From: Octopus sinensis
Lineage: Eukaryota
Assembly (NCBI RefSeq): GCF_006345805.1
Contig: NW_021836309.1
Coordinates: 1 to 64,000 of the forward strand
Reading direction: 5' to 3'
Length of the DNA stretch: 64,000 nt
The position numbers are program-made. Shown in pieces: positions 14,204-64,000 of this stretch (positions within the stretch are counted from its first letter, which is position 1; every line of letters begins with the position of its first letter).

Positions 14204-17200
14204 TAATTGTTTACAGTGCTCAGGTGCACTACAACTCATCTAAAGTGTATATATAATCAGGTGTAGTTTCGGCGGATTTCGGAAAGCGTGAGGGCCTTAA
14301 AGGATGCAGTGTCATGGCAGTCAACAACTGACGCAGGCAGTTTTTTCCATGCTTCAGCAACTCTGAGCGTGAAAAAATGTTTCCAGAAGTCAGGGGAGCT
14401 GTGTTGTTTTCTGATTTTGCAGGAATGTCCACGTGTGTTAGACACATGGAGATCAAAAAGGTGTTCAGTGTTGTTGTTGGTGAGGTGGTTGATAACTTTG
14501 TGGGTGTTTACCAAGTCCTTTGCCAGACGCCGGAGCTTCAGTGAATCCATGCCCAGGGAAACAAGGCGCTCAGAATATGGTAGGTGTCTGATGGAGGGTA
14601 TGCGTTTGGTTGCACGTCTCTGGACAGATTCCAGGAGGTCAATGTTCTGAGCAAGATAGGGGTTCCAAACTGATGATGCGAATTCCAGGTGTGGTCGTAC
14701 GATAGCTGTATACAGTTTTAAATAGATGGCTGGAGAGCGGCTAACAAAAGTCTTGCTGAGTGATGCCAAGACACCCTCGGCCTTCTTGACAATTTTAGAG
14801 ATATGCTTCGTCCAACGCAAATCACTACTGACAGTGATGCCTAGGTCACGCTCGCAAGAGGATTTCTTGATATCAGTGTTGTGGAGGGAGTATGTGGACG
14901 CAGGGTTTTTTCTCCCAAAATGTATGGTGGTACACTTGTCCACAGCCAGTTTCAGTTGCCAGTCTGTGATCCATTGCTGCATTGTGTCTAGGTCTGATTG
15001 CAAGAATGAGTTGTAGACATCAGGATATGACCTCTTGATTTCAAGGTACAGCTTGATGTCGTCTGCATATTTCAATACTGTGGCATTCTTTAAATTGGCA
15101 TCTATGTCATTAATGTATCCCACAAAAAAGAGGGGACCAAGAACAGATCCCTGTGGTACACCCGATAAAATCTCATATAGTGTAGAAAGCTGTCCTAGAA
15201 CTGTGACTACCTCCTTTCGGCTGAGAATGAATGATTTCAACCAGTTAAAAAGGTCATCCCCCACACCCATTACAGAGAGTTTTACCATAAGCCTTTTGTG
15301 TGGCACAGAGTTGAAAGCCTTAGCAAAGTCAAGGTAGACAACATCCACCCATGTATGTATGTATGTATGTATGCATGCATGCATGTATGTATGTATGTAT
15401 GTGTGTATGTATGTATGTATGCATGCATGTATGTATGTATGTATGTGTGTATGTATGTATGTACGTATGTATGCATGTATGTATGTATGTATGCATGCAT
15501 GTATGTATGTATGTGTGTATGTATGTATGTGTGTATGTATGTATGTATGAATGTCTGTATGTCTGTATGTATGTGTGTATGTATGTATGTGTGTGTGTAT
15601 GTATGTATGCATGTATGTATGTATGTATGTATGCATGTATGTATGTATGTATGTATGTATCTATGTGTATGTATGTATGTATGTATGTATGTATGTGTGT
15701 GTCTATTATGTATGTGTGCATGTATGTGTGTATGTATGTATGTATGTGTGTGTATGTATGTATGTATGCATGTATGTGTGTATGTATGTATGTAAGTATG
15801 TGTGCCTGTCTGTATGTATGTATGTATGCATGTATGTATGTATGTATGTGTGTATGTATGTATGTATGTACATGTGTATGTATGTATGTATGTATGTGTG
15901 TCTATTATGTATGTGTGTATGTATGTATGTATGTATGTATGCATGTGTGTATGTATGTATGTGTGTATGTATGTATGTATGTATATATGCATGTATGTAT
16001 GTATGTATGAATGTCCGTATGTATGTATGTATGTATGTATGTAGGTATGTATATATGTATGCATGTATGTATGTATGTATATATGTATGTATGCATGTAT
16101 GTATGCATGTATGTATGTATGTATGTATGTATGTATGTATGCATGTATGTATGTATGTATGTATGCATCTATGTATGTATGTATGCATGCATGTATGTAT
16201 GTATGGTTGTATGTATGCATGTATGTATGCATGTATGTATGCATGTACGTATGTATGTATGTATGTATGTATGTATGTGTGTATGTATGTATGTATGTGT
16301 GTGTGTGTCTATTATGTATGTGTGTATGTATCAGTGTATGTATGTATATATGCATGTATGTTTGTATGTATGTATGTATGTATGTACGTGTGTATGTATG
16401 TACGTAAGTATGTGTGTATGTATGTATGGATGTATGTATGTGTGTATGTATGTATGTATGTGTGAATGTATGTAAGTATGTACATGTGTATGTATGTATA
16501 TATGTATGTATGTGTGTGCCTATTATGTATGTGTGTATGTATGTGTGTATGTATGTATATATGCATGTGTGTATGTACGTATGTCTGTATGTATGTATAT
16601 ATGTATGTATGTATGTGTGTATGTATGTATGTATGCATGTAAGTATGTATGTATGTATGTATGTGTGTATGTATGTGTGTATGTATGTATGCATGTATGT
16701 ATATATGTATGCATGTACGTATGTATGTATGCATGTATGTACGTATGTATGTATGTATGTATGTATGTGTGTATGTATGTTATGTATTCATGTATGTATG
16801 TATGTATGTATGCATGTATGTATGTATGTATGTAAGTATATATGTATGTATGTATGTATGTAGGTATAAATGTATGTATGTATGTATGTATGCATGTATA
16901 TATGTATGCATGTATGTATGTATGTATGTATGTATGTATGTATGTATGTATGTATGTTTGTATGTATGCATGTATGTATGTATGTATGTATGTATGTATG
17001 CATGTATGTATGTATGTATGCATGTATGTATGTATGCATGTATGTATGTATGTATATATGTTTGTATGTATGCATGTATGTATGTATGTATGTATGTATG
17101 TATGCATGTATGTATGTATGTATGCATGTATGTACGTATGTATGCATGTATGTATGTATGTATATATGTATGTAGGTATTATGTAGGGATACATGTATGT

Positions 17201-62170: not shown

Positions 62171-64000
62171 TGTATGTATATATGCATGTATGTATGTGGG
62201 GATGAATGTATGTATATATGTATTTGTGTATGTATCTATGTATGTATGTATGCATGTATGTATGATTGTATGTATGTATGTTTGTATGTATGTATGTATG
62301 TATGTATGCATGCATGTATGTATGGATGTGTGTATGTATGTATGTATGCATGTATGTATGTATGCTTGCATGTATGTATATATGTATGTGTGTATGTATG
62401 TATGTATGCATGTATGTATGTATGTATGTATGTATGTATGTGTGTATGTATGTGTGTGTCTATTATATATGTGTGTATGTATGTAAGTATGTATGTGTAT
62501 ATGTATGTATGTAAGTATGTGCGTATGTGTGTATGTATGTATGTATGTATGTATGCATGTATGTGTGCATGTATGTATATGTGTAAGTATGTATGTACAT
62601 GTGTATGTATCTATGTATGTATGTGTGTGTCTATTATGTATGTGTGGATCTATGTGTGTATGTATGTATATATGCATGTGTGTATGTATGTATGTCTGTA
62701 TGTATGTATATATGTATGTATTTATGTATGTATGTATGTATGTGTGTATGTATGTATGCATGTATGTATGTATGTATATATGAGTATATGTATGTGTGTA
62801 TGTATGTATGCATGTATGTACGTATGCATGTATGTATGTATGTATGTATGTATGCATGTAAGTTTGTATATATGTATGCATGTGTGTATGTATGTAGGTA
62901 TGTATGTATGTATGTATGTATGTATGTATGTATGCATGCATGTATGTATGTATGTATGTATGTATGCATGTATGTATGTATGTATGTATGTATGTTTGTA
63001 TGTATGCATGTATGTATATATGTATGTATGTATGCATGTATGTATGTATGTATGTATGCATGTATGTATGTATGTATGTATGTATGCATGCATGTATGTA
63101 TGTATGTATATATTTATGTATGTATGTATGTAGGTATGCATGTATGTATATATGTATGTGTGTATGTATCAATGTATGTATGTATGCATGTATGTATGTA
63201 TGTATGTATGTATGCATATATGTATGTATGTATGTATGTATGCATGCATGTATGTATGTATGTATGTGTGTATGTATCTATGTGTGTATGTATGTATGTA
63301 GCATGTATGTATGTATGTATGCATGTATGTCATGTATTTATGTATGTATGTATGTATGTATGGTATGTATGTATGTAGTATGTATGTATATATGTATGTA
63401 ATGTATTATGTATGTATGTGGTATGTATGTATGTCTGCATGTATGTAGGTATGCATGTATCATCTATGTGTGCATGTATGTATGTATGTATGTATTTGTA
63501 TGTATGCATGTATGTATAGTATGTATGAATGTATGTACGTATGCATGTATGTATGTGTGTATGTATGTATGTATGTATGAATGCATGAATGTATGTATGC
63601 ATGTATGTATGTGTATGTATGTATGTATGTATGAATGCATGAATGTATGTATGCATGTATGTATGTATGTGTGTATGTATGTATGTATGTATGAATGTAT
63701 GTATGTATGTATGTATGGTTGTATGTATGCATGTATGTATGTATGCATGTATGTATATATGTATGTATGAATGTATGTATGTATGTATGAATGAATGTAT
63801 GTATGTATGTATGCATGTATGTATGTGTGTATGTGTGTATGTATGTATGTATGTATGTATGTATGGTTGTATGTATGCATGTATGTATGTATGCATGTAT
63901 GTATGTATGTATGTATGTATGAATGTATGTATGTATGTATGCATGTATGTATGTGTGGTATGTATGTATGTATGTGTGTATGTATGTATTTATGTATGTA

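What the first reader, a model, noticed from the sequence alone, without database searches (positions are those of the whole stretch)
15352..64000. A microsatellite organised like a layered higher-order satellite
Seen: this is not random decay of TATG. Rare variants recur with zone-specific periods: about 2.8-3.6 kb (15-27 kb), 6.3 kb (27-38 kb), 1.75 kb nested in 5.53 kb (38-49 kb), and 2.3 and 5.0 kb (52-61 kb). Established: such layered higher-order structure is the signature of unequal exchange in centromeric or pericentromeric satellites. Inference: a 4-bp repeat has become a megasatellite, possibly with a chromosomal role.
Basis: partly seen in the sequence, partly recalled or inferred. 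Interest (0 to 1): 0.7.

Follow-up and report, generated by a model that had tools for sequence, protein, structure and literature searches.

The report
Degenerate TATG satellite with nested duplications
A stretch of at least 48.6 kb made of decayed TATG repeats really does carry kilobase-scale copies nested inside larger copies, a pattern already known from human satellites 2 and 3, and nothing here shows that it has a chromosomal job.

Summary
Window 15352-64000 is one uninterrupted, single-orientation, degenerate (TATG)n array that runs off the window end. Markov and chunk-shuffle nulls do not reproduce this.

Duplicated blocks differ by 0.9-5.4% in substitutions, against 7.6% for random pairs. 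In-register 1.76-kb modules differ by 0.6-0.8%, closer than adjacent ones at 1.7-2.0%. That is a true layered signature.

Each layer has only 2-4 copies, there is no discrete short monomer, and overall identity is 85-94.5%. The best match is the "nested tandem repeat" organisation described for (CATTC)n-derived human HSat2/3, not an alpha-satellite-type higher-order repeat (HOR) array. The likely origin is slippage and point mutation followed by successive local tandem duplications.

A centromeric or other chromosomal role is untested and has no support in the window. Assembly artefact is unlikely but needs reads to exclude. I class it as a new member of a known kind, of modest interest.

The parts
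15352..64000 (+). Degenerate (TATG)n array, at least 48,649 bp, one orientation, no foreign insert, cut off by the window end
   Evidence: GC is about 0.29 and GC skew +0.71 to +0.79 (2-kb windows from 16001). 61.2% of cleanly flanked units are TATG.
17214..28381 (+). Zone 1: overlapping duplications at offsets 2.74, 3.2, 3.6, 3.77 and 6.8 kb
   Evidence: Example: 19189-20783 matches 22794-24396 (offset 3605, 2.2% substitutions). 17214-19124 matches 20990-22880 (5.4%). 20019-21619 matches 26793-28381 (3.6%).
27296..37719 (+). Zone 2: two copies of a unit of about 6.3 kb
   Evidence: 27296-28840 matches 33548-35108 (offset 6252, 2.5% substitutions). 29224-31384 matches 35541-37719 (offset 6317, 1.7% substitutions, 94.0% overall identity)..
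38404..47929 (+). Zone 3: 1.76-kb modules nested in a 5.52-kb tandem duplication, the youngest layer
   Evidence: 38995-42399 matches 44518-47929 (offset 5523, 0.91% substitutions, 94.5% overall). 38404-41052 matches 40166-42818 (offset 1762, 3.1%). Module matrix.
31530..58430 (+). Span holding about 11 full or partial copies of the 1.76-kb module, with implied starts near 31.53, 36.61, 38.40, 40.17, 41.94, 43.95, 45.69, 49.04, 50.74, 56.25 and 57.93 kb
   Evidence: blastn of 38404-40165 against the window. 500 HSPs were returned (the cap). Only those at 87.5% identity or more and 400 bp or longer were inspected. Many weaker rows elsewhere are background.
50335..61757 (+). Zone 4: 2.3-kb duplication inside 5.0-kb and 7.2-7.35-kb duplications
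   Evidence: 50335-54689 matches 52657-56981 (offset 2322, 4.7% substitutions). 53905-56725 matches 58932-61757 (5027, 3.3%). 51312-54137 matches 58664-61465 (7352, 3.0%). 49827-51676 matches 57020-58856 (7193, 1.35%)..
42871..43663 (+). One of four copies of a cassette marked by CTATTATG at spacings of about 200-100-200 bp. The others are at 51818-52335, 54143-54653 and 58881-59665.
   Evidence: 44 motif sites in the array. The spacings 281/202/118/184, 202/102/206, 202/102/199 and 285/202/98/192 recur.
14257..15351 (-). 5'-truncated CR1-like LINE reverse-transcriptase fragment. It is an open frame of 364 codons whose truncated end abuts the first repeat unit.
   Evidence: Pfam RVT_1 at E=2.1e-22. 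Longer relatives carry endonuclease plus RT domains (PF03372, PF14529, PF00078). Boundary sequence.
279..13647 (.). Context: five shorter, more decayed (ACAT)n arrays at 279-389, 2114-3141, 4375-4814, 5815-7201 and 12856-13647. All are in the opposite orientation to the main array and sit among TE debris.
   Evidence: TRF (61-80% matches). Orientation counts. They share no long variant patterns with the main array: 0-18 of 72-1338 non-pure 40-mers.

Best explanation
This is a genuine simple-sequence satellite of an animal genome. It is a (TATG)n, equivalently (ACAT)n, microsatellite that grew long, decayed by transition-biased point mutation and small indels, and was then built up by successive local tandem duplications of kilobase blocks. 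The duplications would arise by out-of-register exchange between sister chromatids or homologues, or by replication template switching. Each event copies the idiosyncratic variant pattern of a block. Later events copy blocks that already contain earlier copies. This yields nested, zone-specific periods: 1.76 kb inside 5.52 kb, and 2.3 kb inside 5.0 and 7.3 kb.

Shown: the array, the periods, the graded divergence and the in-register signature. Inferred: the mechanism, the order of events and the absence of a sequence-specific function.

Order of events judged by substitution divergence, youngest first:
- the 5.52-kb duplication, 0.6-0.9%
- the 7.2-kb copy, 1.35%
- the 6.3-kb and 3.6-kb copies, 1.7-2.5%
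- the 1.76-kb, 5.0-kb and 7.35-kb copies, 2-3.7%
- the 2.3-kb copy, 4.7%
- unrelated array background, 7.6%
For: Real long-range copies:
- Exact non-periodic matches reach 223 bp, against at most 98 bp in the nulls.
- Aligned blocks of 0.9-4.4 kb show 0.9-5.4% substitutions, against a mean of 7.6% for 30 random 2-kb pairs.
- The 3.4-kb alignment shows the same odd variants in the same order.

Layering: module copies one 5.52-kb step apart differ by 0.6% and 0.8%. Adjacent or cross pairs differ by 1.5-2.0%. Copies at 49.0 and 56.25 kb differ by 1.7% from each other and by 2.3-4.3% from the rest.

Periods differ by zone and exceed within-zone shuffles.

Natural mutation pattern:
- 1308 of 1753 single-change units are transitions.
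- The CpG-creating variant TACG occurs 60 times, 8-fold rarer than CATG at 495.
- CG occurs 158 times against 461 expected.

Graded divergence classes are what successive events predict. Two flanking reverse-transcriptase frames of 364 and 538 codons are open, which argues for good base-level accuracy of the assembly near the array. The same organisation is described for (CATTC)n-derived HSat2/3 (passages read).
Against: - Copy number per layer is only 2-4, so 'satellite homogenisation' is barely sampled.
- Differences between copies are not mainly whole-unit slippage. In the best pair, 21 of 50 gap events are 1 bp and only 13 are 4 bp. Across pairs, 20-68% of gaps are multiples of 4, against 26% for random pairs. 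Such 1-bp indels could also be consensus errors in low-complexity sequence.
- The counts are inflated by the duplications themselves.
- No reads, second haplotype or related genome could be examined, because no eukaryotic collection was available.
- The mechanism is inferred from the pattern only. Gene conversion cannot be separated from duplication.
- The array edge at a truncated LINE, with opposite-orientation arrays beyond it, is not explained.
Confidence: 0.8

Rival explanations
1. Assembly artefact: the assembler created or mis-joined the kb-scale periods in a low-complexity region, and the true locus is a structureless or much shorter microsatellite.
For: Long simple repeats are hard to assemble. 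21 of 50 gap events between the two best copies are 1-bp indels, a typical long-read consensus error. The array runs off the window, so its far end is unseen.
Against: False duplications should be near-identical, but the longest exact shared stretch is 223 bp. Divergence falls in several graded classes from 0.6% to 5.4% rather than one error level. Differences are transition-biased (ts/mm 13/24 to 124/197 per pair). The array shows a CpG-depletion pattern. Flanking ORFs of 364 and 538 codons are unbroken.
Confidence: 0.07
2. Functional centromeric or pericentromeric satellite. The array is part of a much larger block that recruits centromere or heterochromatin proteins, and the layered periods are the footprint of centromere-type expansion. 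It is compatible with the formation mechanism above and adds a role.
For: The layered, locally varying periodicity resembles pericentromeric HSat2/3. The flank is TE debris with no recognisable gene. 94.2% of steps alternate purine and pyrimidine, which I recall as a Z-DNA-prone pattern. No TE has inserted in 48.6 kb.
Against: There is no positional, chromatin or copy-number evidence at all. Copies are few and 85-94.5% identical overall, unlike the near-identical multi-copy HORs of active centromeres. Five other (ACAT)n arrays within 15 kb suggest that the motif is simply common in this genome.
Confidence: 0.1
3. TE-seeded or TE-driven array. The microsatellite was carried or generated by a mobile element, for example as a LINE tail or as an internal microsatellite of a composite element, and the kb units reflect element copies.
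For: The array begins exactly at a truncated CR1-like LINE. In the flank a unit 'left arm + (ACAT)n + right arm' occurs twice: 1-386 matches 5536-5925, and 2753-4039 matches 6798-8094. A second LINE sits inside one of those arrays.
Against: No TE-like or non-repeat sequence lies inside the 48.6 kb. The flank arrays have the opposite orientation and share no long variant patterns with the main array. The boundary LINE ends in an (ATT)n-type tail, not (ACAT)n. The two LINEs are only 37% identical.
Confidence: 0.05

Closest known systems
Nested tandem repeats (NTRs) of human satellites 2 and 3, derived from (CATTC)n (Altemose et al., bioRxiv 10.1101/2021.07.12.452052, passages read; PMC4022460, passages read)
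   Same: Both derive from a short simple repeat that has diverged. Both have longer repeat units of several kb that are not built from discrete equal monomers. In both, the periodicity varies across the array, which the authors read as hyper-local expansion.
   Different: The motif differs: a 4-bp TATG unit against a 5-bp CATTC unit, with no homology. The genome is non-human. Only 48.6 kb or more is seen here, against Mb arrays. There are 2-4 copies per layer. The chromosomal position is unknown.
Alpha-satellite-type higher-order repeat (HOR) arrays of centromeres
   Same: In-register units are more alike than neighbouring units. The layered picture is compatible with unequal exchange.
   Different: There is no discrete monomer of about 100-400 bp. 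Copies are few and their overall identity is lower. No centromere evidence exists.
Ordinary tetranucleotide microsatellites (STRs)
   Same: The unit is 4 bp. Decay is by point mutation and small indels. Neighbouring (ACAT)n arrays of 0.1-1.4 kb are of this ordinary kind.
   Different: The length is at least 48.6 kb, and there is internal kb-scale duplication structure.

Membership tests
Simple-repeat-derived satellite with nested tandem repeats (HSat2/3-type organisation) | The base layer is a diverged short simple repeat | tested here: met
   61.2% of 4783 cleanly flanked units are TATG and the rest are mostly one-step variants. Periodicity is 0.815.
Simple-repeat-derived satellite with nested tandem repeats (HSat2/3-type organisation) | Longer repeat units of kb size that are not composed of discrete equal-length monomers | tested here: met
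   Units of 1.76, 2.3, 3.6, 5.0, 5.5, 6.3 and 7.3 kb are present. No dominant period below 1.6 kb exists.
Simple-repeat-derived satellite with nested tandem repeats (HSat2/3-type organisation) | Periodicity varies locally along the array | tested here: met
   The top periods differ between the zones.
Simple-repeat-derived satellite with nested tandem repeats (HSat2/3-type organisation) | Large array (hundreds of kb to Mb) in pericentromeric heterochromatin | not testable with these tools
   Only 48,649 bp or more is visible because the array leaves the window. There are no positional data.
Human HSat2/3 sequence family itself | Derivation from (CATTC)n | tested here: not met
   The unit is TATG. 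The two share a kind of organisation, not family membership.
Centromeric HOR array (alpha-satellite type) | Discrete monomers of similar length arranged in a fixed multimer | tested here: not met
   The short-range offset spectrum is diffuse. The modules are 1.76 kb long, with indels.
Centromeric HOR array (alpha-satellite type) | In-register monomers are more similar than adjacent monomers | tested here: met
   0.6% and 0.8% in register against 1.5-2.0% otherwise.
Centromeric HOR array (alpha-satellite type) | Many highly homogeneous HOR copies (threshold recalled as roughly 95-99% or more) | tested here: not met
   There are two 5.52-kb copies at 94.5% overall identity. Other layers are at 85-94%.
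Centromeric HOR array (alpha-satellite type) | CENP-A or kinetochore association | not testable with these tools
   This needs chromatin data.
Microsatellite (STR) | Unit of 1-6 bp in a short array (typically under 1 kb, recalled) | tested here: not met
   The unit size is met, but the length of at least 48.6 kb is far outside that range.

The most novel reading that the evidence does not exclude
The array is the visible edge of a large centromeric or pericentromeric block in which an almost perfectly alternating purine-pyrimidine tetranucleotide (94% alternating steps, potentially Z-DNA-prone) serves as the chromosomal satellite of this species. On this reading, the zone-specific nested periods record ongoing centromere-type layered expansion.
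Probability: 0.1. Interest if true: 0.6.

Novelty: new member of a known kind. Interest (0 to 1): 0.35.

Why it matters
The finding shows that a 4-bp repeat in a non-human animal genome can acquire the nested, locally varying kb periodicity described for the 5-bp-derived human satellites 2 and 3. This supports the view that such structure is a general outcome of tandem-array dynamics rather than a peculiarity of primate pericentromeres. The graded divergence of the layers gives a relative clock for duplication events in one locus. In practice, the rare-variant pattern provides unique markers for checking assemblies of such arrays. It matters more only if the array proves to mark a centromere or another chromosomal domain, which is untested.

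Tried and rejected
- Chance or random decay is rejected by the Markov nulls (orders 4-16) and chunk-shuffle nulls.
- A regular short monomer layer is not found. The short-range offsets are diffuse, with only local spacings of about 200 bp and 452 bp.
- Whole-unit slippage as the main source of divergence between copies is only partly borne out. Many gaps are 1-3 bp.
- Hairpin-prone single strands as a driver have no support. Six 120-nt DNA folds (three sites, both strands) gave z-scores from -0.64 to +1.48.
- Kinship between the main array and the flank (ACAT)n arrays read in reverse complement is not shown. No flank array shares more than 18 non-pure 40-mers with it.
- RNA genes in the flank: Rfam gave 0 matches over 1-15400 and ARAGORN gave 0. 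The whole-window Rfam call failed internally, so the array itself was not scanned.
- Organism: relatives of the boundary reverse transcriptase are mostly unnamed records. The best named ones are a bird protein at 35% identity and MAG-labelled entries. The atlas says only Eukaryota. I conclude that it is an animal genome and go no further. I did not look up where the unnamed records came from.
- Literature on (ACAT)n or TATG satellites: searches gave listings only, with nothing relevant. Searches turned up no description of this array type outside human satellites. This is not proof that none is in print, and supplements were not seen.
- A tile-by-tile blastn timed out and was replaced by a k-mer plus alignment scan.
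- No eukaryotic genome, read or metagenome collection was available, so related loci stayed unchecked.
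Full report
**What is there**

From base 15351/15352 to the last base of the window, the + strand is a degenerate (TATG)n array (sequence; TRF). GC is about 0.29 and GC skew is +0.71 to +0.79 in the 2-kb windows from 16001 on. The visible length is 48,649 bp, and the far end lies outside the window. The window holds no N.

Pure runs of two or more TATG units cover 58.2% of the array, in 2075 runs with a longest run of 15 units. The match between a base and the base four positions on averages 0.815, against 0.377 in the flank. It stays between 0.796 and 0.828 along the array. 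Only two places have a 60-bp window below 0.5, so no transposon or other foreign DNA interrupts the 48.6 kb. The orientation never flips: TATGTATG occurs 5000 times and CATACATA 0 times.

**Variant spectrum**

I counted 4783 units that sit between two perfect units.
- 2925 are TATG, 523 TGTG, 495 CATG, 230 TATA and 157 TTTG.
- 1308 of the 1753 single-change units are transitions.
- The one transition that would create a CpG (TACG, 60) is eight-fold rarer than its twin CATG (495).
- CG occurs 158 times against 461 expected from composition.

I read this as ordinary germline mutation with CpG decay. That is an inference, and the counts are inflated by the duplications described below. Because most changes are transitions, 94.2% of steps still alternate purine and pyrimidine, against 56.3% in the flank. 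The longest perfect alternating run is 207 nt.

**Is the higher-order pattern real?**

Yes. I ignored k-mers that are purely 4-periodic.
- The longest exact repeat is 223 bp (33047-33269 matches 38147-38369). It reaches at most 98 bp in 40 Markov simulations (orders 4, 8, 12 and 16, 10 each).
- The fullest 20-bp offset bin holds 1176 pairs of 40-mers at 5520 bp. The Markov sets reach at most 106, and the 30 chunk shuffles (10 each at 100, 200 and 400 bp) reach at most 371, a maximum from the 400-bp set.
- A k-mer heat map of 500-bp tiles shows sets of parallel off-diagonals.

Zone by zone, the top offsets were these (32-mers; null is 20 shuffles of 200-bp chunks per zone, with a maximum bin of 246-275 in the four large zones).

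| Zone | Top offsets (pairs) |
|---|---|
| 15-27 kb | 3600 (675), 3760 (379), 3240 (230), 2800 (210) |
| 27-38 kb | 6320 (1092), 6240 (439) |
| 38-49 kb | 5520 (1484), 1760 (769) |
| 52-61 kb | 7320 (736), 5040 (571), 2280/2320 (516/338) |

The 3240 and 2800 offsets in the first zone do not exceed that null. They are supported only by alignments at 88-90% identity. The zones 49-52 kb and 61-64 kb show nothing above their nulls.

**How alike are the copies?**

Any two stretches of the array align at about 80% simply because both are decayed TATG. 192 random placements of 1-kb tiles gave 79.9% (sd 0.9, maximum 83.2). Against that background:
- 86 of 96 tiles have a partner at 84% or more.
- 62 of 96 have a partner at 86% or more.
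- 28 of 96 have a partner at 90% or more.

The partners were the best of the three top k-mer offsets per tile, which gives a mild upward bias. The head (15.35-17.3 kb) and the tail (60.85-64 kb) have no partner above background in the window.

Separating substitutions from gaps is more telling.

| Block pair or layer | Substitution divergence |
|---|---|
| 38995-42399 vs 44518-47929 (5.52 kb) | 0.91% |
| 7.2-kb pair | 1.35% |
| Two 6.3-kb pairs | 1.7% and 2.5% |
| 3.6-kb pair | 2.2% |
| 1.76-kb, 5.0-kb and 7.35-kb pairs | 3.0-3.7% |
| 2.3-kb pair | 4.7% |
| Two pairs in zone 1 | 5.4% |
| 30 random 2-kb pairs | mean 7.6% (range 1.6-9.7) |

The alignment printed shows the same odd variants in the same order over kilobases.

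**Nesting**

A 1.76-kb module (38404-40165) has about 11 full or partial copies between 31.5 and 58.4 kb. That search returned 500 HSPs, the cap, and I inspected only those at 87.5% identity or more and 400 bp or longer.

Over module positions 600-1740, copies one 5.52-kb step apart differ by 0.6% (38.40 vs 43.95) and 0.8% (40.17 vs 45.69). Adjacent and cross pairs differ by 1.5-2.0%. The copies at 49.0 and 56.25 kb differ by 1.7% from each other and by 2.3-4.3% from the others. In-register similarity above neighbour similarity is the classical higher-order signature.

A second recurrent element is a cassette marked by CTATTATG at spacings of about 200-100-200 bp. It occurs four times, at 42.9, 51.8, 54.1 and 58.9 kb.

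**What it is not**

- There is no discrete short monomer. Offsets below 1.6 kb are diffuse.
- Each layer has two to four copies, not dozens.
- Overall identity, gaps included, is 85-94.5%.

The array is therefore a chain of overlapping, nested tandem duplications rather than a homogenised HOR array.

**Mechanism**

All of this section is inference from pattern. A microsatellite expanded by slippage and accumulated interruptions. It then underwent repeated out-of-register exchange or replication template switching between its decayed parts. Each event duplicated a local block of 1.7-7 kb, and later events engulfed earlier copies. The divergence classes give the order of events stated in the best explanation.

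One result goes against a simple 'slippage afterwards' story. In the best pair, only 13 of 50 gap events are 4 bp, 21 are 1 bp, and one is 40 bp. Across all pairs, 20-68% of gaps are multiples of four, against 26% for random pairs.

Single-strand hairpins do not explain the behaviour. Six DNA folds gave z-scores from -0.64 to +1.48.

**Assembly artefact?**

This is unlikely, for four reasons.
- False duplications should be near-identical, but no exact match exceeds 223 bp.
- Divergence comes in several graded classes rather than one error level.
- Differences are transition-biased.
- Two reverse-transcriptase frames next to the array are open for 364 and 538 codons, which a consensus with about 0.6% indel error would rarely allow.

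The last point is an inference, and error rates may be higher inside simple repeats. Only reads can settle the question.

**Surroundings**

The 15.3-kb flank is transposon debris with no recognisable cellular gene.
- A CR1-like reverse-transcriptase fragment on the - strand (14257-15351) has a truncated 5' end that touches the first repeat unit (Pfam RVT_1, E=2.1e-22). Longer relatives carry endonuclease plus RT domains.
- A second fragment, 37% identical to the first, lies at 390-1820 on the + strand.
- There are five shorter and more decayed (ACAT)n arrays, all in the opposite orientation to the main array. They share no long variant patterns with it.
- Rfam (1-15400) and ARAGORN found nothing. 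The whole-window Rfam call failed, so the array itself was not scanned.

The relatives of the reverse transcriptase indicate an animal genome. I did not pursue the source of the unnamed records. The window does not look human. No eukaryotic genome, read or metagenome collection was available, so no related locus could be compared.

**Comparison with what is known**

The closest described organisation is that of human satellites 2 and 3. [quoted passage not shown] The authors call these units nested tandem repeats, to set them apart from HORs made of discrete monomers. [quoted passage not shown]

The present array meets the three sequence-level features of that kind. It is not a member of the HSat family itself, because the motif differs, and its chromosomal position is unknown. 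My searches for a described TATG/ACAT satellite or for NTR-type structure in microsatellites outside humans found nothing relevant (listings only). That does not show that none exists.

**Verdict**

- It is a new member of a known kind.
- Interest is 0.35.

Noticed in passing
window 1-8094: The flank itself holds a duplicated unit of about 5.5 kb: 1-386 matches 5536-5925 (92.6%) and 2753-4039 matches 6798-8094 (85.7%). Each copy is 'left arm + (ACAT)n array + right arm'. In copy 1 the array is split by a CR1-like LINE fragment (about 390-2110), which therefore inserted into a pre-existing (ACAT)n array.
   Followed up: partly
window 7827-8509 and 12146-12827: An inverted repeat of 684 bp at 96.5% identity encloses about 3.6 kb. 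Shorter related pieces of about 125 bp also occur at 3501-3623, 7567-7690, 8298-8423 and 12232-12357.
   Followed up: no
window 13720-14207: A non-repeat segment of about 335 bp (13799-14134) sits between an (ATA)n run and an (AAT)n run. It looks like a short element inserted into an AAT microsatellite just downstream of the boundary LINE. No tRNA or Rfam match was found.
   Followed up: partly
window 5447-5803 (+): An open frame of 118 codons reminded me of the C-terminal part of mariner-type transposases. That resemblance is recalled only. Pfam gave no match at E<=0.01. It ends where the left arm of the duplicated flank unit begins.
   Followed up: partly
window 15282-16787 (-) and other frames across all TATG/ACAT arrays: Long stop-free frames (up to 501 codons) reading HTYIHTYI... 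or CMYVCMYV... are by-products of the repeat, not genes.
   Followed up: yes
window 11046-11110: A compound dinucleotide microsatellite, (AG)13 directly followed by (GT)20.
   Followed up: no
window 15352-64000: The CpG-creating variant TACG (60) is 8-fold rarer than CATG (495), and CG is at a third of expectation (158 vs 461). This suggests that the array is or was CpG-methylated in the germline. It is an inference, and the counts are not independent because of the duplications.
   Followed up: partly
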